From an uncultured Clostridiaceae bacterium (GTDB lineage: Bacteria; Bacillota; Clostridia; Saccharofermentanales; UBA5734): DNA of 64,000 nt. The translations under genes and the position numbers were made by a program. This document shows, in pieces, positions 17,325 through 40,112 of the stretch. The number at the start of each line of letters is the position of its first letter. Within the stretch, counting starts at the first letter, position 1. The notes below the pieces were generated by a model. That model was not told where the DNA came from. It saw only the letters and a program-made list of their open reading frames with translations, and searched no databases. The DNA is taken from the NCBI GenBank assembly GCA_942493365.1, contig OW818697.1, positions 1,634,634 to 1,698,633 of the forward strand, written 5' to 3'.

Positions 17325-19097
17325 TCATTGTTCCAAAACGCTGTCAGGGTAGATTTCCCGTCGGTGATAATAGGTATGCAGCAGTTCATGCGCCAGATGG
17401 CCGTTGGCTTCGCCGAGAAAATCCTTGTAGAGAGCCGCGACATCGGGGTTCTTGTGCGATTTTCTTTCGGTTTGAACCAGATCTTCATCATAGAGCGCTT
17501 TGGCGCGCAGGGTGCGGATGTCGATATCCATCAGATCCTGCGCGTGAATCTGGGGTTGTCCGCCGCCGCAAACGCAGCCGCCCGAGCAGCCCATGATCTC
17601 AATGAAGTGATACTGCGGTGCCGTGCCGGCCTTGATGGCGTCCAGCAATTTGCGGGCGGCAGCCGTACTATGGGCGACCGCGGCCCGGATGGTGATGCCG
17701 CCCAGAACGACCTCGGCTTCTTTGATGCCCGCGTCAACGCCGCGTACAACTTTGTACTCCAGCTGGGGCAGATCTTTGCCTTCAAGAATGTCGGCCACCG
17801 TGCGCAGCGCGGCTTCCATAACACCACCGGTCGCGCCAAAGATAACGCCCGCGCCGGTGTATTCGCCGATCAGGTCCTGATCGGGTCCTTCGTCAGGCAG
17901 CTTGTTGAAATCAATGCCGGCCTGTTTGATCATGCGGGCGATTTCGCGGGTGGTCAGGACATAATCGACATCGCGGCATCCCGTCGCCGGATTGAACATT
18001 TCTTCGCGCGACGATTCGGTCTTTTTCGAGGTGCAGGGCATGATCGAAACGACCACAATATCTTTGGGGTCAATGCCCTTGCGCTTGGCGTAATACGTTT
18101 TGATGATGGCGCCTTCCATCTGGTGTGGTGATTTGCAGGTCGAGAGATTATCGAGAAATTCCGGGTAGTAAAATTCGGCGAAGCGAATCCAGCCAGGCGA
18201 ACAGGAGGTGATCATGGGCAGTTTGCCACCGTTTTGAATGCGGCCGAGCAACTCGGTGCCTTCCTCCATGATCGTCAGGTCGGCGGCGAAATTGGTGTCG
18301 TAAACCCGGCTGAAACCCATTCGCCGCAGGGCGGCAAACATCTTGCCGGTCACGCGTGTCCCGATGGGCTGACCGAATTCCTCACCCAGGGCAGCTCGCA
18401 CGGCCGGCGCGACCTGAACCACGACGTGCTTTTTCGGGTTGTTGATGGCCGTCCAGACATTTTCGGTTTCTTCACGTTCGTGCAACGCGCCGACCGGGCA
18501 GGCAATAATGCACTGGCCGCAGTAGATGCAGGGGGCGTCGGCCATGCTGATGTCGAAGGCCGGCCCGACGGCCGTGTCGAAACCGCGGTTGATGAAGGAC
18601 AGCACGTTGACATCCTGTTTTTGGCAAGCCGAAACGCAGCGGCCGCAGAGGATGCATTTGCCCGAGTCGCGGACGATTGACCAGGATTTGTCATCCAGTT
18701 TGGATGGGCTTTTATCGCCCTTGAAGTTGTATTCACGGATGCTGTAAAGCTCGCACAGATCCTGAAGTTCGCAGTTTTGGTTGCGGATGCAGGACAGGCA
18801 ATCTTTGTTGTGGTCGGACAGGATCAGCTCCAGCGTCGATTTACGCGTGGCGCGCACCCGGGGCGAATTGGTCTTGACGATCATGCCTTCGGCGACCGGG
18901 TTGACACAGGCGGCAGCCAGCGAGCGACCGCCGACAACCTCAACCAGGCAAACACGGCAGGCGCCAACTTCATTGATACCCTTCAGGTAGCAGAGTGTCG
19001 GAATCTTGATGCCGGCGGTGCGGGCTGCCTCGAGAATTGTCTTGTTGGCCGGCACACTGATCTGAACACCATCGATGGTTATATTAACATTATTCAA
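17325..19097 (-). CDS. hydA: [FeFe] hydrogenase catalytic subunit (NADH-dependent/bifurcating HydA type)
   Basis: N-terminal 2Fe-2S ferredoxin-like fold (ITIDGVQISV...CRVCLVEV), several CxxCxxC clusters, and H-cluster motifs (TSCSPGW, MPCTSKK, EIMGCSGGCVCGGG). Confidence 0.9.
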   Translation of the reverse strand: MNNVNITIDGVQISVPANKTILEAARTAGIKIPTLCYLKGINEVGACRVCLVEVVGGRSLAAACVNPVAEGMIVKTNSPRVRATRKSTLELILSDHNKDCLSCIRNQNCELQDLCELYSIREYNFKGDKSPSKLDDKSWSIVRDSGKCILCGRCVSACQKQDVNVLSFINRGFDTAVGPAFDISMADAPCIYCGQCIIACPVGALHEREETENVWTAINNPKKHVVVQVAPAVRAALGEEFGQPIGTRVTGKMFAALRRMGFSRVYDTNFAADLTIMEEGTELLGRIQNGGKLPMITSCSPGWIRFAEFYYPEFLDNLSTCKSPHQMEGAIIKTYYAKRKGIDPKDIVVVSIMPCTSKKTESSREEMFNPATGCRDVDYVLTTREIARMIKQAGIDFNKLPDEGPDQDLIGEYTGAGVIFGATGGVMEAALRTVADILEGKDLPQLEYKVVRGVDAGIKEAEVVLGGITIRAAVAHSTAAARKLLDAIKAGTAPQYHFIEIMGCSGGCVCGGGQPQIHAQDLMDIDIRTLRAKALYDEDLVQTERKSHKNPDVAALYKDFLGEANGHLAHELLHTYYHRREIYPDSVLEQ

Positions 19098-19123
19098 TGG
19101 AAATCACGCTCCTTTTGACCACT

Positions 19124-20926
19124 TCACTTTTTGATGACGGCCTTGAATTTGCAGGTCTGCTCACAGGCCCCGCAGCGAATGCATTGGCTGGCATCGATGA
19201 CAAACGGTTCTTTGCCCAGGACGCCGCTGATGCAATCCACTGGGCATCGTTTGGCGCAAAGTCCGCATTTGCGGCAGTTTTCCGGGATAATCATGTAGGT
19301 CAGAAGCGCTTTACAGACGCCGCAGCTGCATTTGTGCTCGATAACATGCTCATCGTACTCGTGGCGGAAATGCTTGAGGGTCGAGAGCACCGGATTGGGC
19401 GCCGTTTGGCCGAGCGCGCAGAGCGAGCCTTCTTTGATGGCCGTGGCCAGGCGCTCAAGTTCGCTGACATCTTCGGGCACACCGTTGCCGGACGTGATCT
19501 TCTGCAGGATTTCCAGCATGCGGTGGGTGCCAATGCGGCAGGGCGCGCATTTGCCGCAGGACTCGTCGACGGTGAATTCGAGAAAGAACTTGGCAATGTC
19601 AACCATGCAGGTGGTTTCATCCATGACGATCATGCCGCCCGAGCCCATCATCGAGCCGGCCGCGATCAGGTTGTCGTAGTCAATCGGCACATCCAAGAGC
19701 GACGCTGGCAGGCAGCCGCCGGACGGACCGCCGGTCTGAACCGCTTTGTAGGCTTTGCCGTTGGGAATGCCGCCGCCGATGTCAAATACAATTTCGCGCA
19801 CGGTTGTGCCCATCGGGATCTCGACCAGGCCAACATTATTGACCTTGCCGCCCAGCGCGAATACCTTGGTGCCTTTGCTTTTTTCGGTGCCCAGGCTGGC
19901 AAACCACTCGGCCCCTTTCTGGAAGATGACCGGGATGTTGGCGAAGGTCTCGACGTTGTTGAGAATGGTCGGTTTGTCAAAAAGACCCTTGACCGCCGGG
20001 AAGGGCGGCCGCGGGGTCGGGTTGCCGCGCTTGCCCTCGATGGAACGCATCAGGGCGGTTTCTTCGCCGCAGACAAAGGCGCCGGCGCCAAGTCGAATTT
20101 CGATGTCAAAACAAAAATCGCTGGCAAAAATATTTTTGCCCAGCATACCGAAATCACGCGCCTGATTGATGGCCAGTTGCAAGCGTTTGACGGCAATCGG
20201 GTATTCGGCGCGCACATAGGCATAGCCTTGGCTGGCGCCTATGGCATAGCCGGCGATGGCCATCGCTTCGACGATGCTGTGCGGATCACCCTCGAGGACA
20301 GCGCGATCCATAAAGGCACCAGGGTCACCTTCATCGGCGTTGCAGCAGACATATTTCTGGTCACTGACCTGCTTGGCGGCAAATTCCCATTTCAGGCCGG
20401 TCGGAAAACCACCGCCGCCACGACCACGCAGGCCGGACATTTTAACAACATTGACAATTTCACTGGGGGGTATCTTTTCGGTCAATATTTTACCGAGGGA
20501 AAGATACCCATCCTGCGCAATGTATTCTTCAATCGATTCGGGGTTGATGATGCCGCAATTGCGGAGGGCAATGCGTAGCTGCTTTTTGAAAAAGTCTGAC
20601 TCATTGACATTTTTAGCCTGATCGAGCGGAATGCTGGTGGCGACGGTCATCAGGCGCTTGACGGGACGGCCTTTGAGCAGATGTTCGCCGACTATTTCCC
20701 GGGCATCGTCTGGCTTGACTTGATAATAGATGACGCCTTCAGGATAGACCACCATGATCGGGCCTTCGGCACAGAGACCGAAACAGCCGGTCTTGACAAC
20801 CTTGACCTCATTGGCAAGTCCTTGAGCGGTCAATTCCTGCTCTAATAATTCAATGATTTTGAGTGATTGACTGGATGTACAGCCGGTGCCGCAACAAACG
20901 AGGACATGGGATCGATAAAAGTCCAT
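19124..20926 (-). CDS. hydB: NuoF-like NADH-binding FMN/Fe-S subunit of the hydrogenase (HydB)
   Basis: GRGGGGFPTGLKW, a YVCCNADEGDPGAF-like motif, ESCGKCAPCR and C-terminal 2x[4Fe-4S]. The start is trimmed to ATG 20926, 4 nt after the hydC stop. Confidence 0.9.
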   Translation of the reverse strand: MDFYRSHVLVCCGTGCTSSQSLKIIELLEQELTAQGLANEVKVVKTGCFGLCAEGPIMVVYPEGVIYYQVKPDDAREIVGEHLLKGRPVKRLMTVATSIPLDQAKNVNESDFFKKQLRIALRNCGIINPESIEEYIAQDGYLSLGKILTEKIPPSEIVNVVKMSGLRGRGGGGFPTGLKWEFAAKQVSDQKYVCCNADEGDPGAFMDRAVLEGDPHSIVEAMAIAGYAIGASQGYAYVRAEYPIAVKRLQLAINQARDFGMLGKNIFASDFCFDIEIRLGAGAFVCGEETALMRSIEGKRGNPTPRPPFPAVKGLFDKPTILNNVETFANIPVIFQKGAEWFASLGTEKSKGTKVFALGGKVNNVGLVEIPMGTTVREIVFDIGGGIPNGKAYKAVQTGGPSGGCLPASLLDVPIDYDNLIAAGSMMGSGGMIVMDETTCMVDIAKFFLEFTVDESCGKCAPCRIGTHRMLEILQKITSGNGVPEDVSELERLATAIKEGSLCALGQTAPNPVLSTLKHFRHEYDEHVIEHKCSCGVCKALLTYMIIPENCRKCGLCAKRCPVDCISGVLGKEPFVIDASQCIRCGACEQTCKFKAVIKK

Positions 20927-20930
20927 ACGG

Positions 20931-21422
20931 TCATGCCTCCTTGTATTTTTCCAGGATCGCTGGGATTTCATCGGCAGTCAGGCGGCCGTAGACATCCTCA
21001 TTGATCATCATGACCGGTGCGAGTCCGCAAGCCCCGATACAGCGGCAGGCATTGATGGAAAATTTCATATCCGGGGTGCATTCACCGGGCTTGATGCCTA
21101 AAATATCTTGCACTTTATCCAGAATCGCTTGGGCGCCTTTGACATAACAGGCGGTTCCCATGCAGACGCTGACCACGTTCTCGCCTTTGGGATTGATCGA
21201 AAAGAATGAATAAAATGATACAACTCCATAGACTTCAGCGACGGAAACACCGAGACCGAAGGCAACTTCACGCTGAACTTCCAAAGGCAGGTACCCATAA
21301 ACGCCCTGTGCTTCCTGAAGAACCTGCATCATGGCTTTACGGCCTTCCTTGCCGTGACGTTCGATGACCAGCTTGAGCTGATCCATCTTTTCGTCATGAG
21401 TCAATTGATTCATAGTTTGCAT
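20931..21422 (-). CDS. hydC: NuoE-like 2Fe-2S subunit of the hydrogenase (HydC)
   Basis: Thioredoxin-like 2Fe-2S pattern VCMGTACYVKG...CRCIGACGLAP. The start is set to ATG 21422, after GGGAGGTGA. Confidence 0.85.
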   Translation of the reverse strand: MQTMNQLTHDEKMDQLKLVIERHGKEGRKAMMQVLQEAQGVYGYLPLEVQREVAFGLGVSVAEVYGVVSFYSFFSINPKGENVVSVCMGTACYVKGAQAILDKVQDILGIKPGECTPDMKFSINACRCIGACGLAPVMMINEDVYGRLTADEIPAILEKYKEA

Positions 21423-21567
21423 GGTTTGACTCACCTCCCAATTGTATACAATATCACGATTTGTTAACAACATCAACATCTTCGTTAAATGTTTATCAAT
21501 AAATCATAAATGGTTTTTTCTCTGATTACTAGTATAATACTGAAATAGATGATTTTGGAGGCTGATT

Positions 21568-25636: not shown

Positions 25637-27541
25637 TTATTTTTTGGCGGCAAGGTCCAGCAAAGCAGCCGCCTGAGCAGCTATGTCTGCCGGTTTGAGG
25701 CCTTGAGCAGCCAGCAGTTCATCACGGCGACCCTGGCAAAGCGGCGCGTCGCAGATGCCAGAAACAGCGAAGCGCGCCTTCGGTAAGGCCGTCAGCAGTT
25801 TGGGCAGCACGTATTGGCCGAAGCCGCCGGTTTGCAGGCCTTCTTCAATCAGGATCACATGGCCGGTTTTGCGAACTGATGTGAACAGCGTCGCAAAATC
25901 AAAGGGTTTTACACACTGGATCACCAGGACATCGGCTTCGATCCCCTGGCCAGCTAGAATCTTCGCGGCTGACAGCGCCGGTCCAGCCATGGTGCCAAGG
26001 GCCGCCAACGTGATATGGCTGCCCTGTCGCAAATGGTCGATGCGCAAAATCGCTGCCACATCGTTCTCTTGATCCGCAAGCGGCTCGGGTATTGCTTCCG
26101 GCCAATCGTTGCCGCGCGGATAACGAATGGCGACCGGAAGTCCGGCGTCGACGGCGTATTCCAAAGTGCGTTGTAAAGATTTGCAGTCTTGCGGGCAAAA
26201 TATTTCCAGATTGGGCAGCGGCAAAAGCAGCCCGAGGTCATAGATACCCTGATGGGTTTCGCCATCTTCGCCGACAATGCCGGCACGATCAATCGCCACG
26301 ATGACCGGTAGTTTTTGCAGACAGACATCATGTAGCAATTGGTCATAGGCCCGCTGCAAGAAGGTTGAATACAAGGCGACCACCGGAATCATCCCACCGA
26401 CAGCCAGACCTGCCGCCATGGTCATGGCGTGCTGCTCAGCGATGCCGACATCGAAAAAGCGTGCCGGGTAATTTTCGGCAAACTCGGCCAGGCCTGTGCT
26501 AAAGGTCATGGCCGCCGAAATCGCGCAAATCCGTGGGTTCTGGCTGGCCAATTGCAGCATTTTTTCGCCAAAGGCTGCTGAAAACGAGCATGAGCTGCCC
26601 GTTTGCTCGGTCACGCCATCTTCCACAACAAAGGGCGCCACGCCGTGGTAAAGCGACGGGGATTCTTCGGCAAAGCGGTATCCCCTGCCCTTTTGCGTCA
26701 TGACATGGAGCAGGATCGGACCTTTGATCTGCTGGATGGTGCGCAGATAATTTCTGAGCACAACGAGGTTGTGTCCATTGATCGGTCCATAATATCGAAA
26801 TCCGAGCTGTTCAAAAATGATGCCGTTCTTGTGCACCGTCTGCCGAAGTGATCGCTTGATTCGCTGCAGCAGTCGATAGATCGGCTTGCCCAGCCAGGGG
26901 GTTTTGAGCAGTTGGGCGTCGACCCAGGATTTGATATGGATGTAGCGCGGCGAGACGCGCAGGTTTTCCAGATGGCGCGACAGGCCGCCGACATTGGGGC
27001 TGATCGACATTTGGTTGTCGTTGAGGATGACAATCAGGTTTTCCTGCGAATGGCCGGCGTCGTTGAGGGCTTCAAAGGCCATGCCGCCCGTGAGGGCCCC
27101 ATCGCCGATCACCGCAATGGCTTTGCCGGCATGGTTGCTGCGGCTCATCGCGCGGCTGATGCCCAGGGCTGCCGATATGGAGGTGCTGCTGTGTCCGGTG
27201 TTGAAAAAATCGTAGATGCTTTCACTTTGTTTGGGAAAACCGGACAGGCCGCCCAGCTGTCGCAGCGTCGCGAAGCTCTCCAGCCGGCCGGTGAGAATTT
27301 TCCAGGCATAACTCTGATGACCGACATCAAAGACAACGCGATCACGATGAAAATCAAATTCGAGCAGCAAAGCCAGGGTCAATTCGACAACGCCAAGATT
27401 CGAAGCCAAATGGCCGCCGTTTTTGGCAACCGTCTGGATGATCAGATCGCGTACTTCGCTAGACAGCTGTTCCAATTGGTTCCGGTTGAGCTGATGCAGT
27501 TGGTCGGGTAAATCGAGATTTCCCAGTAGGGTATCTGACAT
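25637..27541 (-). CDS. dxs: 1-deoxy-D-xylulose-5-phosphate synthase
   Basis: GGHLASNLG, the TPP motif GDGALTGGMAFEALN, and EQHAMTMAAGLA. The start is trimmed to ATG 27541. Confidence 0.95.
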   Translation of the reverse strand: MSDTLLGNLDLPDQLHQLNRNQLEQLSSEVRDLIIQTVAKNGGHLASNLGVVELTLALLLEFDFHRDRVVFDVGHQSYAWKILTGRLESFATLRQLGGLSGFPKQSESIYDFFNTGHSSTSISAALGISRAMSRSNHAGKAIAVIGDGALTGGMAFEALNDAGHSQENLIVILNDNQMSISPNVGGLSRHLENLRVSPRYIHIKSWVDAQLLKTPWLGKPIYRLLQRIKRSLRQTVHKNGIIFEQLGFRYYGPINGHNLVVLRNYLRTIQQIKGPILLHVMTQKGRGYRFAEESPSLYHGVAPFVVEDGVTEQTGSSCSFSAAFGEKMLQLASQNPRICAISAAMTFSTGLAEFAENYPARFFDVGIAEQHAMTMAAGLAVGGMIPVVALYSTFLQRAYDQLLHDVCLQKLPVIVAIDRAGIVGEDGETHQGIYDLGLLLPLPNLEIFCPQDCKSLQRTLEYAVDAGLPVAIRYPRGNDWPEAIPEPLADQENDVAAILRIDHLRQGSHITLAALGTMAGPALSAAKILAGQGIEADVLVIQCVKPFDFATLFTSVRKTGHVILIEEGLQTGGFGQYVLPKLLTALPKARFAVSGICDAPLCQGRRDELLAAQGLKPADIAAQAAALLDLAAKK

Positions 27542-27566
27542 GATTGAATCCTTTCGATGGTGTTGC

Positions 27567-28463
27567 TTAATGGGTTCTGAGTCGTACATAGGCCGTCAAT
27601 CCCTCAAGAAAGTGCGTTTTCAAACCGGCCAGGTGCATGGCATGCAGCGTAGACGCCGCCAGACTGATCGAATCGTCGAGATGAACTTTTGCTGAGCTGG
27701 TGCCCAGCAGGCTGACGTAAGTCGGTTTTTTGTCCCGCGCGTCTTTGCCGACGGTTTTACCCAGCGTGCCGGCGTCGGAGGTGGTATCCAGAATATCGTC
27801 CTGAATCTGAAACGCCAGGCCCAAGGCAACGGCATATTCCGTCAGCAGCTCGGTCATCTCCTGATCAACCCCCGCCAGCGCGGCTGCGGCCAGAACTGGG
27901 GCTTTGAGCAAAGCACCGGTCTTTAATTGATGCAAAATGCGCAGTTCAGGCAAGGTGATGGTTTGTCCGGCCGCTGCCAGATCCAGCGACTGGCCGCCGA
28001 TCATGCCGCGACTGCCGGCCGCCGAAGCAATGCGGCGCGCGGCTTCAACAGAACCGGGGATTTCCGGTCGAATGGCGTCGAGCAAAATTTCATAAGCCCG
28101 GTTCAGCAGGGCGTCGCCGGCCAGAACAGCCAGTGCTTCGCTGTAAACCTTGTGGCAGGTCGGTCGTCCACGCCGCAGATCATCATCATCCATGCAGGGC
28201 AGATCGTCATGGATCAGCGAATAGGTGTGAATCATTTCCAGGGCCACGGCAAAGGGCAAAGCGACGGATCGATTGACCCCCAGCATTTCAGCTGTCGCCA
28301 AAAGAAGGACCGGCCGGATCCGTTTACCGCCGCCGAGCAAGCTGTAGCGGGCTGCTTCTACAACCTTGCCGTCGGCCAGTTCGGCTTGCTCGGGTAAATA
28401 GTCGGGCAACGCCGCATCGACTGCAGCCTGAAAGGCATCGTATTGCTGCTTGAAAAAAGACAT
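27567..28463 (-). CDS. ispA: (2E,6E)-farnesyl diphosphate synthase / polyprenyl synthetase
   Basis: First and second Asp-rich motifs LIHDDLPCMDDDDLRRG and FQIQDDILD. Confidence 0.85.
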   Translation of the reverse strand: MSFFKQQYDAFQAAVDAALPDYLPEQAELADGKVVEAARYSLLGGGKRIRPVLLLATAEMLGVNRSVALPFAVALEMIHTYSLIHDDLPCMDDDDLRRGRPTCHKVYSEALAVLAGDALLNRAYEILLDAIRPEIPGSVEAARRIASAAGSRGMIGGQSLDLAAAGQTITLPELRILHQLKTGALLKAPVLAAAALAGVDQEMTELLTEYAVALGLAFQIQDDILDTTSDAGTLGKTVGKDARDKKPTYVSLLGTSSAKVHLDDSISLAASTLHAMHLAGLKTHFLEGLTAYVRLRTH

Positions 28464-28720
28464 CAGGATTCCTCCCCGAAAGGTTTCTCCTCGATGGATC
28501 CGTCTTGTTTTTCAATCAGTTGGGTGATCTGTTTCTCGATCTCCGCCAGTTTACCGGCACAGATTTCAGACAGGGTCATGCCTTTGCGGAAAAGGGTCAT
28601 CGATTCGTCCAGACTGATGTCTCCCGATTCCAGCCGCGCGACCGTCTGCTCAAGCATTTTGACGGCCTCCTCGTAAGACAGTCCCGTTAATTCCACAGGG
28701 TCAGGTGTTGCATCATTCAT
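28463..28720 (-). CDS. xseB: exodeoxyribonuclease VII small subunit
   Basis: SYEEAVKMLEQTVARLESGDISLDESMTLFRKGMTL is the canonical XseB helix-hairpin. It lies downstream of xseA. Confidence 0.85.
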   Translation of the reverse strand: MNDATPDPVELTGLSYEEAVKMLEQTVARLESGDISLDESMTLFRKGMTLSEICAGKLAEIEKQITQLIEKQDGSIEEKPFGEES

Positions 28721-28722
28721 AG

Positions 28723-29934
28723 TTATTTCCTCCTGTCGCCGACCTGGCGAACATCACAGTTTAAGACACCATCACTGAGCCAGACATCAATCTGATCGCC
28801 CGCTTTGACCATGGCAGTCGACAGCAGCACGCGATCATTGGCGGCCAGCGTGATCATCCCATAGCCGCGCGATAAAACTTTGAGCGGACTCAAGGAGTCC
28901 AGTTTGCCGGCCAAAATCGAAAACTGCCTTTCAGCCTGCGCCACGCGTGATTGCATGGTTTGCCGCAAAAGCCGCAGCGCACGGTCACCATCCATCCGGC
29001 GACGATCAACAATCTCCAGCGGCTGACGGAAGGCCCGGTTTTGCCGCAGGTTGTCGAGATGCAGTCGCTGTCTTGACAGTCTGCTGCCCAGTGCCTGGGC
29101 CAGGCGACTGCGCATCTGCATCAGCATCAGCTCCTGTTCGCGCCGAACCGGCACAGCCAATTCAGCTGCGACCGACGGCGTTGAGGCCCGGCGGTCGGCG
29201 ACAAAATCGCAGATGGTAAAATCCGTTTCGTGGCCAACCGCGGATATAACCGGAATTTTGGAGGCAAACACGGCGCGCGCCACGATCTCTTCGTTAAAAG
29301 CCCAGAGGTCTTCCATCGATCCACCACCGCGGCCAACAATCAGGACATCCGCCTGACCGAGGCGGTTGAACCGCTCAATCGCCGCGGCAATGCTGGCGGC
29401 GGCACCTTCGCCCTGAACCTGGACCGGCATCAACTGCAGGTGAAAATTGGGGAAGCGGCGGGTCAGCACCTGGATGATGTCGCGAATGACAGCGCCAGAT
29501 GGCGACGTCACAACACCGATGGTGCGCGGCAACAGCGGCAGCGGCTTTTTGCGCTCCGGGTCAAACAGTCCCTCAGTTTCAAGTTTTTTCTTGAGCTGTT
29601 CAAAGGCCAGATACAAATCGCCCAAGCCATCTGCCGTCATGTCGCTGACATAAAGCTGGAATTTGCCGTCACGATCATAGACCGATGCTTTGGCCGTCAC
29701 AATCACCTTGAGGCCGTCGGTCGGTTTGAACCGCAGGCGGGTGGTCTGCCCTTTGAACATAACGCAACTGACGGATGCTTCTTCGTCTTTTAATGAAAAA
29801 TATAAGTGCCCCGAGGCATATGATTTGAAGCCTGAAATCTCACCCTTGACCAGAACAGGGTTAAGAATGGCATCGCGCTCGAGCAAACCCGCGACATACC
29901 GATTGAGCTGGACAACCGAAATCGGCTGGCTCAT
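28723..29934 (-). CDS. xseA: exodeoxyribonuclease VII large subunit
   Basis: N-terminal OB fold (VKGEISGFKSYASGHLYFSLKD), RGGGSMEDLWAFNEE, and VISAVGHETDFTI. Confidence 0.9.
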   Translation of the reverse strand: MSQPISVVQLNRYVAGLLERDAILNPVLVKGEISGFKSYASGHLYFSLKDEEASVSCVMFKGQTTRLRFKPTDGLKVIVTAKASVYDRDGKFQLYVSDMTADGLGDLYLAFEQLKKKLETEGLFDPERKKPLPLLPRTIGVVTSPSGAVIRDIIQVLTRRFPNFHLQLMPVQVQGEGAAASIAAAIERFNRLGQADVLIVGRGGGSMEDLWAFNEEIVARAVFASKIPVISAVGHETDFTICDFVADRRASTPSVAAELAVPVRREQELMLMQMRSRLAQALGSRLSRQRLHLDNLRQNRAFRQPLEIVDRRRMDGDRALRLLRQTMQSRVAQAERQFSILAGKLDSLSPLKVLSRGYGMITLAANDRVLLSTAMVKAGDQIDVWLSDGVLNCDVRQVGDRRK

Positions 29935-35042: not shown

Positions 35043-35221
35043 AACCCGCGTTCTGTCGATATTCGATATCGTATATCGTTACAAATACCATTTCGTAACC
35101 CATCCTTCGTGTGCTCGCGTTGGGGTGGCTTATATTTGGCGCAATTGTAACGTGTGATATCGCAAAATACGTGAATCAATTGTAATTTGAAAGCATCAAT
35201 AATCATCAGGAGGAAAGTGAA

Positions 35222-36001
35222 ATGGAAACAAATCTGTTGAAATTGAAACGTTTTAACCTGATTATGGGCTTCTTTCATCTGATCCAGGGTATCGCGATGC
35301 TTTTTCTGGCCACAACGGTCATCCAGAAAATTGCGGCGTTTCAGCCGACCATTGTGCAGAATTTTCTAAAATTCGATGTGGCCAGCAAGACGCTGGTTCC
35401 CGATACCAAAGTCTTGTTCGACCTGCCCTTCGGCATTCTGGTCGCTTCATTTTTACTGATCTCAGCCGCCGCTCACGCTTTAATCGTCATCAAAAGCGAC
35501 AAGTATCTGGCTGATATCCAAAGGGGTATCAACAAGTATCGCTGGTTTGAATACGCCATCAGTTCATCGATCATGATCGTCCTGATTTCGACCTTGTTTG
35601 GCATCTATGACATCGCGACGCTGGTTGTCATTTTCATCGCCAACGCGACCATGAACCTCTTTGGTTTGGTCATGGAGCAGCTCAATTCTGGCGTCGATAA
35701 GAAGAACGTCAACTGGGGTCCTTTCATTTGGGGATCGATTGCCGGCCTGGCGCCCTGGATTGCCATCCTCTTGTATATGTTCGGCAACGGCAATTTTGAC
35801 AGAACACCCTGGTTTGTCTGGGCCATCGTCGGCACCTACTTTGTCGCGTTTTGTACCTTCCCGATCAACATGATCCTCCAGTACAAAGGCATCGGCAAAT
35901 GGAAAAATTACGCTTATGGTGAGCGGACCTACATCGTGCTGAGCCTGGTCGCCAAATCGCTTCTGGCCTGGCTGGTGCTCTTTGGGGCGATGCAGCCTTA
36001 A
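35222..36001 (+). CDS. heliorhodopsin (retinal-binding 7TM protein)
   Basis: 259 aa with seven hydrophobic helices. FNLIMGFFHLIQG, SAAAHALIV, YRWFEYAISSSIMIVLI and GERTYIVLSLVAKSLLAW closely parallel the remembered HeR-48C12 segments (GVFHLLQ, FHFIV, RWVEYSLSSSVMIVLI, GERAYIVLSLVAKSALAW). The TM7 Lys is K245 (35954-35956). An AGGAGGA RBS precedes the ATG. Confidence 0.85.
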   Translation: METNLLKLKRFNLIMGFFHLIQGIAMLFLATTVIQKIAAFQPTIVQNFLKFDVASKTLVPDTKVLFDLPFGILVASFLLISAAAHALIVIKSDKYLADIQRGINKYRWFEYAISSSIMIVLISTLFGIYDIATLVVIFIANATMNLFGLVMEQLNSGVDKKNVNWGPFIWGSIAGLAPWIAILLYMFGNGNFDRTPWFVWAIVGTYFVAFCTFPINMILQYKGIGKWKNYAYGERTYIVLSLVAKSLLAWLVLFGAMQP

Positions 36002-36014
36002 TGGCAGGTTAGTG

Positions 36015-36956
36015 ATGAATCAGGCATTTTTCAAAGGACGGCACAAGCACAAGCGCTATTTTGAGGGCTGGTATTTTAAGTGTATCAGCGCGGATCGGCA
36101 GCATGCCATCGCCATCATCCCGGGCATGGCCATCGATCCCCTGGGCAACAAACATGCCTTTATTCAGGTGATCAACGCGGTCAATGGCAAAACGGCGTAT
36201 CACCATTTCCCCTATGCCGACTTCGCCTCGCCAACCGATCGGTTTGCCATCCGCATTGGCAGCAACACCTTTGCCGATCAGGGCTTATCCTTGGCCATCG
36301 ACTCACCGGAGGGCCAAATCAAAGGCTCGCTGATATTTTCCAATATCCATGCTTTCCCTGTTTCACGCTTGAATCCCGGTATCATGGGACCCTTTACCTT
36401 TGTGCCGATTATGGAATGCTACCACGCGATTATTCATCTCGATCACGCCATTTCAGGTACGATCGAACTGGATGGTGAGCTGATGGATTTTAACGGTGGG
36501 GCTGGCTACATCGAAAAGGATTACGGCCGTTCATTTCCGCGCACCTACCTTTGGCTGCAGGCCAGCCATTTTGATTCGAGTCATGCCTCATTTGTTTTCT
36601 CGCAGGCGCGGATCCCCCTGCTCGGTCGGGAATTCCCTGGATTTTTCGCCTATTTCACAGATTTTGCCGGCCAAACCGTGCGCTTTGCGACCTACAATCG
36701 CTCGCGGCTGGAAAACTGGCAGGTCGATCCCATCGCCCGCACCTGCTCGGGACTGCTGCGCGGACCGCAAGGCAGCCTGACTTTTGCGGCAAAAATGATC
36801 GGCGGCGGCAAGCTACGAGCGCCGGTCGACGGCCTGATGGATCGCGAAATCATCGAAAGCATCACGGCGATCGTCAACCTTCGGCTGACCGATCGGCAGG
36901 GGCGGGTTATCTTTGCCGGAACCAGCACCGAAGCGGGTATGGAGATCAGTTGCTGA
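36015..36956 (+). CDS. tocopherol cyclase family protein
   Basis: KRYFEGWYFK and MECYHAIIHLDHAISGTIELDGELMDFNGGAGYIEKDYGRSFPRTYLWLQASHF parallel plant VTE1 ([63 protein letters not shown]). The ATG is 13 nt after the heliorhodopsin stop (the ORF-track start 35982 is probably too long). Confidence 0.8.
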   Translation: MNQAFFKGRHKHKRYFEGWYFKCISADRQHAIAIIPGMAIDPLGNKHAFIQVINAVNGKTAYHHFPYADFASPTDRFAIRIGSNTFADQGLSLAIDSPEGQIKGSLIFSNIHAFPVSRLNPGIMGPFTFVPIMECYHAIIHLDHAISGTIELDGELMDFNGGAGYIEKDYGRSFPRTYLWLQASHFDSSHASFVFSQARIPLLGREFPGFFAYFTDFAGQTVRFATYNRSRLENWQVDPIARTCSGLLRGPQGSLTFAAKMIGGGKLRAPVDGLMDREIIESITAIVNLRLTDRQGRVIFAGTSTEAGMEISC

Positions 36957-38196
36957 CCTGTTCGAGTCGGTAGATCTGACCGTTGAGGTCTACAACCCGC
37001 AGTTCGCCGGCCGCGTCTACGCCAAAAGACGCGATGTTAATCGCCGAATCAAGAATCATGGTATTGTGCGCCAACCCGTCTTCGTCGATCCAGAGCGACC
37101 AAAGCCGGCCCGATACGTAATCGCCATAGATGTAAGTTGCCTTGAGCAGCGGCGATTGTGTGCCGGCGTAGACATAGCCGCCGGTGATCGATTCGTCTGG
37201 CGCATGCGGGTATTCCCACACCGGCGGAATCATATCCGCCAAATTGAGGCCGGGAACATCTTTGTAGGCATGCAGCCCCTCTAAAGCGCTCCAGCCATAA
37301 TTGCCGCCCTTGACAATCAGATCGACCTCTTCATAGAGACTCTGTCCGACATCCGCTGCCCACAGGCGGCCACTTGCGTCAAAGCTGAAACGCCAGGGGT
37401 TGCGCAGCCCAAAGGCGTATATTTCTTCGCGGTATCCCTGCGTATTGCCGACGAAGGGATTGTCTACCGGTATGCTGAAAGGCTGGCTGCTCTCCGATGG
37501 ATGAACGTCGATGCGCAGGATTTTGCCCAGCAGCGTGGTCAGATTCTGACCATTGTTCTGAGGGTCGCCCCCGGACCCACCATCGCCGACGGCAATATAC
37601 AGGTAGCCGTCCGGCCCAAAGGCCAGGCATCCGCCATTGTGGTTTTCGTAGGGCTGGGCAAAGGTCAGCAGGACTTTTTCGCTGGCCGGGTCGGCGGCCA
37701 ATGGATTTGTCGCGCTCCGGGTCAGTCGTGAGATGACCGTCCCGGCGCTGTTGGTGTAATTAACATAAATAAAACCGTTGCTTTTATAATCGGGATCAAA
37801 CGCCAGTCCCAAGAGGCCCTGTTCACCGCCGCCGGAACGCACACGATCGGTTAGATCCAGAAAAACATCCGCGGTGGTGGTATCAGCCTGATCGACAAAT
37901 ATTTTGATTCGACCTGCCCTTTCCACGACAAAGGCGTATTGGCTTAAAGCATCGACAACGCCAAAATACAGCGGCTGATTGAAGGTCAGATTGGGGTAGG
38001 CATTAACCAGGCTGAAGGTGCCTGTTTCCGGCGCGGGTGTCGGTGTCGGCGCTGGCGTCGGCGTCGGTGTCGGCGGTGCCGTCGTTGTTATTGTTGGAAC
38101 CACCGATGTTTGCTGGCTCGTCAGCGTCGCGCCCTGGCAGGCTGTCAATGCTGAAAGTGTGATGATCATCAACAGAATAAAATGCAACTTTTTCAT
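36946..38196 (-). CDS. PQQ-dependent sugar (glucose/sorbosone) dehydrogenase-like beta-propeller lipoprotein
   Basis: Lipobox LSALTAC, a Thr/Pro linker, then FAQPYENHNGGCLAFGPDGYLYIAVGDGG...FGLRNPWRFSFD, typical of the soluble PQQ sugar dehydrogenase family. There is an 11-nt convergent overlap with the cyclase gene. Confidence 0.8.
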   Translation of the reverse strand: MKKLHFILLMIITLSALTACQGATLTSQQTSVVPTITTTAPPTPTPTPAPTPTPAPETGTFSLVNAYPNLTFNQPLYFGVVDALSQYAFVVERAGRIKIFVDQADTTTADVFLDLTDRVRSGGGEQGLLGLAFDPDYKSNGFIYVNYTNSAGTVISRLTRSATNPLAADPASEKVLLTFAQPYENHNGGCLAFGPDGYLYIAVGDGGSGGDPQNNGQNLTTLLGKILRIDVHPSESSQPFSIPVDNPFVGNTQGYREEIYAFGLRNPWRFSFDASGRLWAADVGQSLYEEVDLIVKGGNYGWSALEGLHAYKDVPGLNLADMIPPVWEYPHAPDESITGGYVYAGTQSPLLKATYIYGDYVSGRLWSLWIDEDGLAHNTMILDSAINIASFGVDAAGELRVVDLNGQIYRLEQVSN

Positions 38197-38225: not shown

Positions 38226-40112
38226 TTAAGGTCTCCCCGCCTGATCATAGACCCTGCTGACTTTGAACAGCCGATCCAGTTTGTAGGTTGCGCTGTTGCG
38301 CATGGTATAGCCATTGACTGGCGTTTTGTCGACATAAATGTAATTGCTGCCGGGGTACATGTAAGCTGTCGTGCCGAGGCCGCCGAACAGAATAAAGCCC
38401 TGGTTTTGCAGCCAGATCGACCGTTCGTCCGCGCCCGTTAAAAATGAACCGTTCGGATAATTCAAAAAAGCCACCGGACCAGTCAGCGCGCCAACTTGAG
38501 CCAGCCATTTGCCGGTGTCGGCCTGAATGCGTTCCAGGCTCTGGTTGCGGGCGTCAATAAAACCGTAAGTTGATGAGGCAAAAAGCCAGCCCGTGTTTTT
38601 CAAACGGTTGATGATGGTTTGCACGGCCGCTTTGTTTTCGGCAATCTGCGCCGACGACAGGCTGATCGGCGCAAACCCATTGTCCTGCAAGGCCGCATTG
38701 CGATCATCCAGCTGATCCTCCTCCGTCACCTGACCGAAAATGCATTCATAGCCGGTCAGCGAAATCGTGCCTTTGGCGCCATCGTGCGAAAAGTCAGGGT
38801 GGGCGCTGACAAACAAGTCGAGGATGCCAATGGCCTCACCTTGACGATCGACGGTCATCTGCCCGCTGCTGTTTTGGTATTCGGCGCTGACTTCGCCCCC
38901 TTCATCCAGCACCAAATCCCAGGCGTTGCCGGTTTGGCGGCGCGAGGCATAATAGTTGAGCCCCTCAATGACCAGCACCAACGGTTTTTTGCCTTCCGGC
39001 AGCTCGAGCTGGGCGACACGCCGATCACTGGTGTAGATGCGGCTGGAATCAATCAGGATGTAATTGTTGGCATATAACTCAGCCAGCATGGCGCTGAATT
39101 CCCCGGTTGTCATCATCGAATCGTTGGCGGCATCGGCATAGCTGTCGCCGTCAAAAGCGGCAGCATTGTTGTTAATCAACGGTTTGATGCTGATCAATTC
39201 GATGCGCCCGTTGTAGGGCAGCAAAACAGCCGGCAGGTGCGTCGCGCATGCCGTCAGATCAGCCTGAATAACAGTGTCTTCGGTGTAAACAGCGGCCATT
39301 TTCTGCAGCGCCTTTTGCGCCGAAAGAAAGCGCCCGCCAGCCATCAGCGCTTGCGCCTCGTCGAGCAATGGCCGATACATTTCCGTCCGGCATTCGTCCA
39401 TGCGCAGACGAGCCTGGTCGTGGACATAGCCTGCCAGCTCAGCGTGGTCAAGGATCGTCGCAAAGCCGGCCCAGGCCGCCCAATAATGGTCCGCCTCAAA
39501 ATCAGCCATCGCCGTCATCATCATGGCCTGACCGCCCGTCATGCGCTCAAATTCACTGGGCAGTTCGCCGATGGCATCCTGCAGATTGGGCAACGTTGCC
39601 AGCTGGCTAAAAGCGTTTTCCAGGATAGGCAAACTGGTTTTGCCTTGCAGATAATCCTGACACAAGCCGCGCAAAAATGCGATCAGTCGAACCGCGGAGA
39701 CTTCGGCCATTTTTTCAGCGAAGGTCAATTCGTTGTTGTTGAGCGTCATTTGATCCAGCAGATGGTTTTCGATCGATGCCAACTGCGCATTGGTAACCGC
39801 TTCCATTTCTGCCAGGGCGTGCTGAAAGTTTTTCTGCTGCTGATCGAGCAAGCCCGACGTCAGCGCATTGCCCTGCGTCAGGCGATAAATGGCAATCGCG
39901 TCGTCATAGCGGTTTTCAGTCATGGCCAGTTTAAAGTCCTTGAGGACCGCGTCAGTTCGCTGATCGCCGGTCACGATGTAAAGACCGACAATGACAGCCA
40001 CGGTCAAGGCCACCGCAAGCAGAATGATCAGCAGGCGGCGCACCACGGGATTGCCGGTTTGTTCGTCGCGAATGTAGACCGTCTTGGCCATGTCAGGACT
40101 CTTCCAGGCCAA
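38226..40112 (-). CDS. membrane-anchored protein of unknown function (helical-repeat region plus ~300-aa C-terminal extracytoplasmic domain)
   Basis: One N-terminal TM segment (LLIILLAVALTVAVIVGLYIV). I recognise no catalytic motif. The C-terminal part vaguely recalls divergent polysaccharide-deacetylase-like proteins. The alternative start ATG 40091 would remove the overlap with parC. Confidence 0.5.
   Translation of the reverse strand: MAWKSPDMAKTVYIRDEQTGNPVVRRLLIILLAVALTVAVIVGLYIVTGDQRTDAVLKDFKLAMTENRYDDAIAIYRLTQGNALTSGLLDQQQKNFQHALAEMEAVTNAQLASIENHLLDQMTLNNNELTFAEKMAEVSAVRLIAFLRGLCQDYLQGKTSLPILENAFSQLATLPNLQDAIGELPSEFERMTGGQAMMMTAMADFEADHYWAAWAGFATILDHAELAGYVHDQARLRMDECRTEMYRPLLDEAQALMAGGRFLSAQKALQKMAAVYTEDTVIQADLTACATHLPAVLLPYNGRIELISIKPLINNNAAAFDGDSYADAANDSMMTTGEFSAMLAELYANNYILIDSSRIYTSDRRVAQLELPEGKKPLVLVIEGLNYYASRRQTGNAWDLVLDEGGEVSAEYQNSSGQMTVDRQGEAIGILDLFVSAHPDFSHDGAKGTISLTGYECIFGQVTEEDQLDDRNAALQDNGFAPISLSSAQIAENKAAVQTIINRLKNTGWLFASSTYGFIDARNQSLERIQADTGKWLAQVGALTGPVAFLNYPNGSFLTGADERSIWLQNQGFILFGGLGTTAYMYPGSNYIYVDKTPVNGYTMRNSATYKLDRLFKVSRVYDQAGRP

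What the first reader, a model, noticed from the sequence alone, without database searches (positions are those of the whole stretch)
35222..36001. Heliorhodopsin gene in an apparently anaerobic, hydrogenase-encoding Firmicute
Seen in the sequence: a 259-aa, seven-helix ORF. Its conserved blocks line up with the prototype heliorhodopsin as I remember it.
- RWFEYAISSSIMIVLI carries E110, which I equate with the Schiff-base counterion Glu.
- GFFHLIQG carries H19 and AAAHALIV carries H85, the two conserved His residues.
- GERTYIVLSLVAKSLLAW carries K245, the retinal-binding Lys in TM7.

Established knowledge: heliorhodopsins are inverted-topology retinal proteins with a slow photocycle and no ion pumping. 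Their physiological role is still unresolved, and they are largely restricted to monoderm prokaryotes.

Inference: the same window carries an NADH-dependent [FeFe] hydrogenase operon, which suggests an anaerobic lifestyle. It shows no carotenoid-cleavage or retinal synthesis gene. The chromophore source and the purpose of light sensing are therefore open questions.
Basis: partly seen in the sequence, partly recalled or inferred. Interest (0 to 1): 0.6.

Follow-up and report, generated by a model that had tools for sequence, protein, structure and literature searches.

The report
Heliorhodopsin gene in an anaerobic Clostridia bacterium
This is a genuine, intact heliorhodopsin (an "inverted" retinal light sensor) in a strictly fermentative bacterium that cannot make retinal. 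That situation is already known to be typical of this protein family, and the one fresh lead is its operon partner, a "tocopherol-cyclase-like" enzyme that travels with heliorhodopsin across Firmicutes genomes.

Summary
ORF 35222-36001(+) is a full-length heliorhodopsin (HeR): Pfam PF18761 scores 313.7 bits and the NCBIfam HeR equivalog scores 287 bits. H19, H85, E110 and K245 align with the TaHeR residues and are invariant in 133 relatives.

The genome is one 2.37-Mb contig. It has HydABC and PFOR. It has no cytochrome bd, UbiA prenyltransferase, Omp85, photolyase, type-1 rhodopsin, blh, RPE65 or phytoene synthase. It is therefore a monoderm fermenter that must scavenge its chromophore.

None of this is new in kind. 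More than 5000 homologues exist, many 70-83% identical in anaerobic Clostridia and Erysipelotrichaceae. The lack of blh in HeR-only genomes is published, and 0 of 22 HeR-bearing phylum genomes had blh here.

The added value is the gene 13 nt downstream, a tocopherol-cyclase-like (TCL) enzyme.
- In a 400-genome phylum sample, 17 of 22 HeR+ genomes carry TCL, against 14 of 378 HeR- genomes.
- Only 1 of 21 photolyase+ HeR- genomes carries TCL.
- The link is absent in Chloroflexota (0 of 33 HeR+ genomes).
- TCL cannot be a true tocopherol cyclase here, because the genome has no prenylquinone pathway.

The scan had already noted HeR-TCL pairs in other genomes. My best reading is a retinal-scavenging photosensor whose lineage-specific partner is TCL.

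The parts
35043..35221 (+). 179-nt intergenic leader upstream of the HeR gene, with the Shine-Dalgarno AGGAGG at 35208-35213
   Evidence: Sequence read. No convincing sigma-70 promoter was found in this stretch. Only a GGTAAC(G/C)TGTG block and the RBS are shared with the nearest relative L114.
35222..36001 (+). Heliorhodopsin gene (259 aa): H19, S81, H85, R107, E110 (counterion), S241, K245 (Schiff-base Lys)
   Evidence: dN/dS is 0.09 against the ortholog in L114.
36015..36956 (+). Tocopherol-cyclase-like (TCL) gene, 313 aa, soluble. It starts 13 nt after the HeR stop, with no terminator between, so it is the probable second gene of a two-gene operon.
   Evidence: PF14249 61.8 bits. No terminator in the gap. 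AF2 model pLDDT 93.3, an all-beta double barrel. Foldseek hits: Diels-Alderases Fsa2/Phm7/CghA, AttH 2ich, kievitone hydratase 7a0t, 25-phosphosteroid lyase 9fzn. dN/dS 0.11. The same pair is adjacent in L114, L151 and L078.
36946..38196 (-). Convergent GSDH-family (glucose/sorbosone dehydrogenase-like) lipoprotein gene whose 3' end overlaps the TCL 3' end by 11 nt. It marks the end of the operon and is context only.
   Evidence: PF07995 146.7 bits. Also downstream of the pair in L114.
17325..21479 (-). HydC-HydB-HydA trimeric [FeFe] hydrogenase operon. This is context for the anaerobic lifestyle and is not part of the HeR unit.
   Evidence: Fe_hyd_lg_C 316.5 bits, Complex1_51K 155 bits, 2Fe-2S_thioredx 171.8 bits.

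Best explanation
The ORF encodes a functional heliorhodopsin. Shown: it is a full-length, seven-helix member of the family with every chromophore-site residue intact, it is under purifying selection, and it sits in a monoderm strict fermenter that has no known route to retinal or any carotenoid. Inferred: the apoprotein inserts with its N-terminus in the cytoplasm. It binds all-trans-retinal taken up from the surroundings as a protonated Schiff base on K245, with E110 as counterion. On illumination it enters the long-lived photocycle typical of HeRs without pumping ions. It passes the signal through its Lys/Arg-rich cytoplasmic loops (91-107, 153-165, 220-235) to a cytoplasmic partner, as shown experimentally for other HeRs with glutamine synthetase, photolyase and an ABC transporter encoded in the same operon. 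Here the most likely partner, or functionally coupled protein, is the co-transcribed tocopherol-cyclase-like enzyme. That enzyme is a cofactor-free double-beta-barrel protein of the AttH / kievitone-hydratase / Diels-Alderase fold class. It should do acid-base chemistry (hydration or cyclisation) on a C=C bond of a hydrophobic isoprenoid. Sub-confidences: it is a HeR, 0.97; the chromophore is scavenged and not made, 0.6; TCL is its functional partner in some sense, 0.4.
For: Family membership and residues. Topology by the positive-inside rule. Purifying selection (dN/dS 0.09 for HeR, 0.11 for TCL). No blh, RPE65 or SQS_PSY, and no homologues of a CrtI-like / SQS_PSY / DUF92 cluster in the whole genome. 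The same lack of blh in 22 of 22 HeR+ genomes of the phylum sample, and SQS_PSY in only 8 of 22. Anaerobic monoderm host. Operon geometry (13-nt gap, no terminator). The pair is conserved in the nearest relative L114 (83% / 75% identity), in G493 of the same family, and in an unrelated Bacillota MAG, L078. Genome-level co-occurrence: TCL in 17 of 22 HeR+ against 14 of 378 HeR- genomes (Fisher p = 1.7e-17 by genome, 4.6e-10 by genus, 9.8e-8 by family); 53 of 79 named HeR+ genomes carry TCL; only 1 of 21 photolyase+ HeR- genomes does. TCL fold. Published precedent for HeR acting on operon partners through cytoplasmic loops: PMC11109279, which cites PMC9529153 and PMC9769723.
Against: No experiment exists, so pigment formation, photocycle and any HeR-TCL contact are untested. 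In most HeR+ TCL+ genomes the two genes are unlinked: 0 of 29 TCL loci and 1 of 80 HeR loci are adjacent. Five near-complete HeR+ genomes and two isolates (Enterococcus aquimarinus, Anaerobium acetethylicum) lack TCL. Within the window's own family the association is weak: 8 both, 3 HeR only, 3 TCL only, 4 neither. In Chloroflexota 0 of 33 HeR+ genomes have a detectable TCL, so TCL is not a general requirement of HeR. Photolyase co-occurs with HeR almost as strongly (15 of 22 against 21 of 378), so part of the signal may reflect a shared 'light' gene set. Related genomes are not independent samples. Many relatives come from anaerobic digesters and groundwater (record titles), where both light and retinal are doubtful. 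The blh (BCD) model rang in no control genome at E<=0.001, so its negative results lack a positive control.
Confidence: 0.75

Rival explanations
1. HeR is a stand-alone photosensor. TCL is a fellow member of a Firmicutes 'light / photo-oxidative stress' gene set, along with photolyase and sometimes carotenoid genes. The two proteins do not touch and share no substrate, and the adjacency here is a lineage accident.
For: The genes are unlinked in most genomes that have both. No neighbour is conserved around either gene. Photolyase co-occurs with HeR nearly as strongly. TCL sits next to photolyase in G125 and G334 and inside an AhpC / CrtI-like / SQS_PSY / DUF92 cluster in Acetobacterium wieringae. 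Chazan et al. list tocopherol cyclase among oxidative-stress-type HeR neighbours.
Against: TCL is at background frequency in photolyase+ HeR- genomes (1 of 21 against 13 of 357), so it tracks HeR and not light exposure as such. The 13-14-nt pair recurs in three members of this family and in an unrelated MAG. This genome keeps HeR and TCL but no photolyase and no carotenoid genes.
Confidence: 0.33
2. TCL tailors or supplies the pigment used by HeR. It would act as an oxygen-independent hydratase or cyclase on a scavenged isoprenoid (carotenoid, apocarotenoid or retinoid), giving either the retinal-type chromophore or a hydroxylated carotenoid that docks in the HeR fenestration as a second antenna.
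For: The fold class contains carotenoid/prenyl hydratase-type and cyclase-type cofactor-free enzymes. A 70%-identical TCL lies in a phytoene-synthase / desaturase cluster in Acetobacterium. No HeR+ genome of the phylum sample has blh. A published preprint proposes that HeR fenestrations bind exogenous xanthophylls (10.1101/2025.11.27.691015). The fenestration aromatics F168 and F210 and G175 are conserved here.
Against: This genome has no carotenoid or prenol-salvage genes for TCL to work with. Some HeR+ genomes lack TCL, and HeR+ Chloroflexota lack it entirely. From my own knowledge of the literature, HeRs generally form pigment in E. coli with added retinal alone. In this HeR the fenestration Asn is replaced by Cys211.
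Confidence: 0.12
3. In this dark-dwelling anaerobe the protein works without light or without retinal, as a membrane scaffold or lipid-binding regulator, and the opsin chemistry is vestigial.
For: Close relatives are frequent in MAGs from anaerobic digesters, AnMBR reactors and groundwater (record titles). The genome has no chromophore pathway and no photolyase.
Against: K245, E110, H19, H85, S81 and S241 are invariant in 133 sequences and dN/dS is 0.09. That degree of conservation of the retinal site is hard to explain without retinal binding. HeR co-occurs with photolyase, a light-dependent enzyme, in 15 of 22 genomes.
Confidence: 0.06
4. It is a light-driven or light-gated ion transporter, like the proton-transporting viral HeRs.
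For: Some viral HeRs transport protons (cited in PMC11109279).
Against: The sequence is closest to TaHeR and 48C12, which from my own knowledge show no transport. The NCBIfam equivalog match is to the standard prokaryotic HeR. According to 10.1101/2025.11.27.691015 the transporting viral subfamily lacks the fenestration motif, which this protein keeps.
Confidence: 0.03

Closest known systems
TaHeR (Thermoplasmatales archaeon heliorhodopsin, PDB 6is6/7u55) and HeR 48C12 (PDB 6su3/6uh3)
   Same: Full-length alignment (E=1.8e-53 and 6.2e-45). The same Schiff-base Lys, Glu counterion, His pair and the Ser residues near the Schiff base. The same length and seven helices, with N-in charge bias. The fenestration residues (aromatic pair, Gly) are kept.
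   Different: About 45-50% identity only. The host is a strictly anaerobic Clostridia-type fermenter. The position of the usually conserved fenestration Asn (TaHeR N204) is Cys211 here, a change shared with only 2 of 132 other sequences. No spectroscopy exists for this clade as far as I found.
The Firmicutes HeR clade annotated by NCBI as 'heliorhodopsin HeR' (Enterococcus aquimarinus, Jeotgalibaca porci, Erysipelotrichaceae, Christensenellaceae and Fusibacter MAGs)
   Same: 70-83% identity over all 259 residues, the same length, and highly variable gene neighbourhoods. HeR is present in 11 of 18 genomes of the window's own family.
   Different: Only the window, ENA contig L114, G493 and MAG L078 have TCL directly downstream. 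The others carry TCL elsewhere or not at all.
HeR-partner operons with demonstrated regulation: AbHeR-glutamine synthetase (PMC9529153), TfHeR-photolyase (PMC9769723), OcHeR-OmrDE ABC transporter (PMC11109279)
   Same: HeR is co-oriented with a cytoplasm-facing partner at an operon-type spacing of 13 nt. The cytoplasmic loops are rich in Lys/Arg, like those shown to mediate binding in OcHeR.
   Different: The partner is a tocopherol-cyclase-like enzyme, which is not among the ten neighbour groups classified in PMC11109279. No binding or regulation has been tested.
Tocopherol cyclase VTE1 / Pfam PF14249 (plants, cyanobacteria)
   Same: The downstream gene scores above the Pfam threshold (61.8 bits) and shares the YFEGWYFK and GYIEKD-type blocks.
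   Different: The Pfam match covers mainly profile positions 146-333. The genome has no UbiA-type prenyltransferase and so no prenylquinol substrate. The host is non-photosynthetic and anaerobic.

Membership tests
Heliorhodopsin (Pfam PF18761 / NCBIfam NF038020) | Significant full-length match to the curated family models | tested here: met
   PF18761 313.7 bits against 26.7, profile 1-242 of 242. NF038020 equivalog 287 bits against 100.
Heliorhodopsin (Pfam PF18761 / NCBIfam NF038020) | Retinal-binding Lys in TM7, homologous to TaHeR K238 / 48C12 K241 | tested here: met
   K245 aligns with the TaHeR Lys in SLVAKS and is invariant in 133 sequences.
Heliorhodopsin (Pfam PF18761 / NCBIfam NF038020) | Single Glu counterion in TM3 (RWFEY motif) and the two conserved His residues | tested here: met
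   E110, H19 and H85 align with TaHeR E108, H23 and H82 and are invariant in 133 sequences.
Heliorhodopsin (Pfam PF18761 / NCBIfam NF038020) | Inverted topology (N-terminus cytoplasmic, C-terminus outside) | tested here: met
   Tested in silico only. K+R counts are 14 in the N-terminus plus loops 2, 4 and 6, against 5 in loops 1, 3 and 5 plus the C-terminus. The protein is collinear with solved HeRs. Not shown experimentally.
Heliorhodopsin (Pfam PF18761 / NCBIfam NF038020) | Binds all-trans-retinal, slow photocycle, no ion pumping | not testable with these tools
   Needs expression with retinal, absorbance, flash photolysis and a pH-electrode assay.
Heliorhodopsin (Pfam PF18761 / NCBIfam NF038020) | Host is a monoderm prokaryote (reported distribution, PMC8612252) | tested here: met
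   No Omp85/BamA in the genome, while all seven diderm controls rang.
Tocopherol cyclase (VTE1) function, for the downstream gene | Sequence membership of PF14249 | tested here: met
   61.8 bits against 26.6, residues 124-311 on profile 146-333. Homologues carry precomputed PF14249.
Tocopherol cyclase (VTE1) function, for the downstream gene | A prenylquinol substrate pathway in the same organism (UbiA-type homogentisate or quinone prenyltransferase) | tested here: not met
   No PF01040 UbiA match in the genome, while 14 of 14 control genomes rang. So it is a family homologue and not a tocopherol cyclase by function.
HeR-regulated partner operon (GS / photolyase / ABC-transporter type) | Partner gene co-oriented with HeR at operon spacing, with no terminator between | tested here: met
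   13-nt gap and no terminator-like site in the gap. The same arrangement is seen in L114, L151 and L078.
HeR-regulated partner operon (GS / photolyase / ABC-transporter type) | Physical binding of the partner to HeR cytoplasmic loops, and light-dependent change of partner activity | not testable with these tools
   Needs ITC or pull-down and an enzyme assay. The TCL substrate is unknown.

The most novel reading that the evidence does not exclude
In Firmicutes, heliorhodopsin and the tocopherol-cyclase-like enzyme form a previously uncharacterised two-component light module. HeR either switches the enzyme by light, or uses its lipid product (a hydrated or cyclised isoprenoid made without oxygen) as chromophore or antenna. 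This would give HeR a concrete biochemical output in anaerobes and identify the first function for bacterial 'tocopherol cyclase family' proteins.
Probability: 0.3. Interest if true: 0.75.

Novelty: new member of a known kind. Interest (0 to 1): 0.4.

Why it matters
The physiological role of heliorhodopsins and the source of their chromophore in HeR-only bacteria have been open since 2018. This gene alone does not change that. It is one more member of a large, already catalogued Firmicutes clade, and its lack of retinal genes is the rule.

The useful outcome is a concrete, testable partner. A small soluble enzyme is co-transcribed with HeR here. Across Firmicutes genomes it tracks HeR about twenty-fold above background and does not track photolyase-marked light exposure. 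It cannot be doing its annotated job in this organism.

A two-protein binding and activity experiment, or lipidomics of a relative with and without the pair, could show whether this is another HeR-regulated enzyme or a pigment-tailoring step. The negative result in Chloroflexota already limits the claim to a lineage-specific partnership.

Tried and rejected
1. I looked for a conserved neighbour of this HeR clade in 80 loci. No cluster was found in more than 7 loci; the most frequent were an OmpR-type regulator plus a histidine kinase. None of them is in the window.
2. I looked for a conserved neighbour of TCL in 59 loci and found none. A VTE5-like or DUF92 gene appears next to TCL in only 3 loci.
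3. I tested whether HeR-TCL adjacency is general. It is not: 1 of 80 HeR loci and 0 of 29 TCL loci show it.
4. I tested whether the co-occurrence extends to Chloroflexota. It does not.
5. I tried to name the organism by exact look-up of RpoB and TCL. The clusters are singletons without names. The only taxonomic handle is that a same-genus genome coincides with the record 'uncultured Saccharofermentans sp.'.
6. I compared the upstream leader with the nearest relative. Little is conserved beyond the RBS, and no regulator site could be proposed.
7. A profile search of TCL against PDB sequences gave only E~0.8 hits to Fsa2, so the fold relationship rests on Foldseek alone.
9. I rejected recent horizontal transfer on composition grounds. 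HeR GC3 is 0.68, within the 0.63-0.72 range of its neighbours.
10. I rejected the pseudogene or relic reading, because dN/dS is 0.09.
Full report
**1. What is there**

The ORF is exactly as described: 35222-36001 on the + strand, ATG start, 259 aa, TAA stop, and the reverse strand closed by stops. AGGAGG sits 8 nt before the ATG.

- Pfam PF18761 (Heliorhodopsin) matches residues 8-257 to the whole 242-position profile at 313.7 bits, against a cut-off of 26.7.
- The NCBIfam equivalog NF038020 'heliorhodopsin HeR' gives 287 bits against a cut-off of 100.
- All solved heliorhodopsins match end to end: TaHeR 6is6 E=1.8e-53, the eukaryotic Cv06 9vfc E=1.8e-48, 48C12 6su3 E=6.2e-45.
- In an alignment of 133 sequences (120 database relatives, 12 locus translations and TaHeR), H19, S81, H85, R107, E110, S241 and K245 are invariant. 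They align with TaHeR H23, S78, H82, E108 and K238 in literature numbering; the PDB chain numbering is offset by 6.
- Seven hydrophobic segments are present. Lys+Arg counts are 14 for the N-terminus plus loops 2, 4 and 6, against 5 for the other side, as expected for the N-in topology of the family.

**2. The host**

The window lies in a single 2,369,401-bp contig (53% GC, 96.9% complete, 0.42% contamination).

- The HydC/HydB/HydA trimeric [FeFe] hydrogenase operon is real.
- A 1173-aa pyruvate:ferredoxin oxidoreductase is present elsewhere in the genome.
- Whole-genome six-frame searches found no cytochrome bd, no UbiA-family prenyltransferase although 14 of 14 controls rang, no Omp85/BamA, no DNA photolyase and no type-1 rhodopsin.

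Without a UbiA-family enzyme there is no menaquinone and no haem O. The organism is therefore a monoderm, non-respiring fermenter, and 'apparently anaerobic Firmicute' is supported.

RpoB has no relative within 90% identity in the protein collection. One genome that the tool places in the same genus has hit coordinates identical to those in NCBI record OY776634.1, 'uncultured Saccharofermentans sp.'. That is the best taxonomic lead.

**3. Chromophore supply**

No blh/BCD, RPE65-type carotenoid oxygenase or SQS_PSY (phytoene/diapophytoene synthase) is detectable anywhere in the genome, even at E<=1. tblastn with the CrtI-like, SQS_PSY, VTE5-like and DUF92 proteins of an Acetobacterium cluster finds only FAD-motif noise.

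It is not unusual, however. Among the 22 HeR-bearing genomes in a 400-genome sample of the same phylum, none has blh and only 8 have SQS_PSY. One caveat: the BCD model rang in no control genome at that threshold.

Chazan et al. (bioRxiv 10.1101/2021.02.16.431466) already reported that blh is rare next to HeRs and co-occurs with them mainly when another rhodopsin is present, and they raised the idea of an unknown retinal pathway. Kornilov et al. (bioRxiv 10.1101/2025.11.27.691015) argue that HeRs recruit exogenous xanthophylls through a lateral fenestration.

The fenestration residues are kept here: F168 and F210 as the aromatic pair, G175, and P214. The usually conserved Asn is Cys211, a change shared only with the nearest relative and one other sequence.

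**4. How common is this?**

The protein search returned 5302 significant hits among the 8000 candidates scored. The best 120 are 75-83% identical over the full length.

Eighty genomic loci from species-representative genomes carry relatives at 47-80% identity. Their record titles include Christensenellaceae, Clostridiaceae, Erysipelotrichaceae, Oscillospiraceae, Fusibacter, Proteiniclasticum, Anaerobium acetethylicum and Enterococcus aquimarinus. Many come from anaerobic digesters, AnMBR reactors and groundwater.

HeR occurs in 22 of 400 sampled genomes of the phylum and in 11 of 18 genomes of the window's own family. Bulzu et al. (PMC8612252) already described HeRs in strictly anaerobic Firmicutes.

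The gene is under purifying selection: dN/dS is 0.09 against the 83%-identical ortholog on ENA contig L114. Its GC3 is like that of its neighbours. As a heliorhodopsin it is a new member of a known kind.

**5. Context: the downstream gene**

Thirteen nucleotides after the HeR stop begins a 313-aa soluble protein, 36015-36956, with no terminator-like site in the gap. Its 3' end overlaps a convergent GSDH-family gene, so the unit is a two-gene operon.

It matches Pfam Tocopherol_cycl at 61.8 bits. A real tocopherol-cyclase function is excluded in this organism because there is no prenylquinone pathway.

An AlphaFold2 model built on 26 sequences is confident (pLDDT 93.3, pTM 0.91) and all-beta. 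Foldseek against the PDB finds, at E=7e-9 to 7e-6, the fungal Diels-Alderases Fsa2/Phm7/CghA, the AttH protein 2ich, kievitone hydratase 7a0t and 25-phosphosteroid lyase 9fzn. From my own knowledge, these are cofactor-free double-barrel enzymes that act on C=C bonds or leaving groups of hydrophobic polyketide, prenyl or steroid substrates. Oxygen-independent hydration or cyclisation of an isoprenoid is therefore the most plausible chemistry. This is inference.

**6. Is the HeR-TCL link real?**

*Adjacency.* The same pair, with a 14-nt gap, is on the nearest relative's contig (HeR 83%, TCL 75%). It is also in G493 of the same family and in an unrelated Bacillota MAG, L078 (HeR 72%, TCL 34%). 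Otherwise adjacency is rare: 1 of 80 HeR loci and 0 of 29 TCL loci. Neither gene has any conserved neighbour.

*Genome-level co-occurrence.* This signal is strong.
- In the 400-genome phylum sample, 17 of 22 HeR+ genomes have TCL against 14 of 378 HeR- genomes. Fisher p is 1.7e-17 by genome, 4.6e-10 after collapsing to genera and 9.8e-8 after collapsing to families, with eight families carrying both.
- Of 79 named genomes carrying a HeR relative, 53 carry TCL somewhere.

*Control with photolyase.* Photolyase also co-occurs with HeR (15 of 22 against 21 of 378). Among HeR- genomes, however, TCL is no more frequent with photolyase (1 of 21) than without (13 of 357). TCL therefore follows HeR and not light exposure as such.

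*Limits.*
- Related genomes are not independent samples.
- Five near-complete HeR+ genomes and two isolates lack TCL.
- Within the window's own family the association is weak: 8 both, 3 HeR only, 3 TCL only, 4 neither.
- In a 250-genome Chloroflexota sample, 33 genomes have HeR and none of them has a detectable TCL.

TCL is thus a Firmicutes-specific companion, not a general requirement of HeR.

*Other contexts of TCL.* It lies directly beside photolyase in two genomes. In Acetobacterium wieringae a 70%-identical copy closes a cluster of AhpC, a CrtI-like desaturase, SQS_PSY, an unannotated 220-aa membrane protein and DUF92. Both contexts tie the family to light and isoprenoid pigments.

**7. 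Mechanism**

*Shown.* This is an intact, selected HeR with a complete retinal site, in a monoderm fermenter without chromophore synthesis. It is co-transcribed, by geometry, with a cofactor-free lipid-type enzyme that tracks HeR across Firmicutes.

*Inferred.* Retinal, and possibly a xanthophyll, is scavenged. Light drives the usual slow HeR photocycle. The signal leaves through the Lys/Arg-rich cytoplasmic loops, as demonstrated for OcHeR with OmrDE (PMC11109279) and for the HeR pairs with glutamine synthetase and photolyase that the paper cites. TCL is the most likely target or functionally coupled enzyme. TCL is not among the ten neighbour classes listed in that paper. It is mentioned once, as an 'oxidative-stress' neighbour, by Chazan et al..

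*Rivals.* They are: a shared light-stress gene set without direct coupling; TCL as a pigment-tailoring enzyme; a retinal-independent role in the dark; and ion transport. They are weighed in the Rival explanations section.

**8. Earlier notes of this scan**

It had also flagged HeR-TCL pairs in Acholeplasma-like and other genomes, with carotenoid and photolyase links (e1-4436229, e1-4661827, e1-3988049, e1-2740616). I treated these as leads.

The co-occurrence statistics, the photolyase control, the Chloroflexota negative result, the UbiA test and the fold assignment above were all done here.

**9. Verdict**

It is ordinary as a heliorhodopsin. It is moderately interesting because it offers a clean two-gene test case for a lineage-specific HeR partner.

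Noticed in passing
L115:3436-10380 (Acetobacterium wieringae, GCA_902175055.1): A TCL 70% identical to the window's closes a co-oriented cluster in a strict anaerobe: AhpC-TSA, a CrtI-like amine-oxidase-family desaturase, SQS_PSY, a 220-aa membrane protein with no Pfam hit, DUF92 and TCL, followed by a zinc-ADH gene. This looks like an undescribed isoprenoid/carotenoid module.
   Followed up: partly
G125:C35:2053-3548 and G334:C18:21057-22552 (genome search handles): The TCL gene lies directly beside a DNA-photolyase gene. In five genomes of another family (f33) the two are 8-14 kb apart.
   Followed up: partly
window 35852-35854 (codon for residue 211 of the HeR): Cys replaces the Asn found in 129 of 133 relatives. 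Kornilov et al. (2025 preprint) call this position the conserved fenestration Asn. The change is shared only with L114/P0002 and P0113.
   Followed up: partly
G111, G278 and G267 (phylum sample): In three HeR-less genomes the TCL match carries an in-frame TAA or is split into two frames. These may be decaying copies, but MAG errors are not excluded.
   Followed up: no
window 38226-40112 (-): A 628-aa ORF directly after parC has no Pfam match at E<=0.01.
   Followed up: no
window 25637-29934 (-): An exonuclease VII large subunit gene (28723-29934), a polyprenyl (FPP-type) synthase gene (27567-28463) and dxs (25637-27589) lie on the same strand. The MEP route and short-chain prenyl diphosphate are therefore present, although no carotenoid, quinone or UbiA-type enzyme is.
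   Followed up: partly
whole genome G000: No UbiA-family prenyltransferase at all, while 14 of 14 control genomes have one. This implies no menaquinone and no haem O or A in this organism.
   Followed up: partly
L114:13923-14783 and G000:C1:490182-491036: A DUF1295 gene, a family that Chazan et al. report as a recurrent HeR neighbour, lies about 6 kb from the HeR-TCL pair in the nearest relative. In this genome it sits 1.18 Mb away, next to the NAGPA gene that flanks HeR in L114. The neighbourhood was therefore rearranged while HeR-TCL stayed together.
   Followed up: partly
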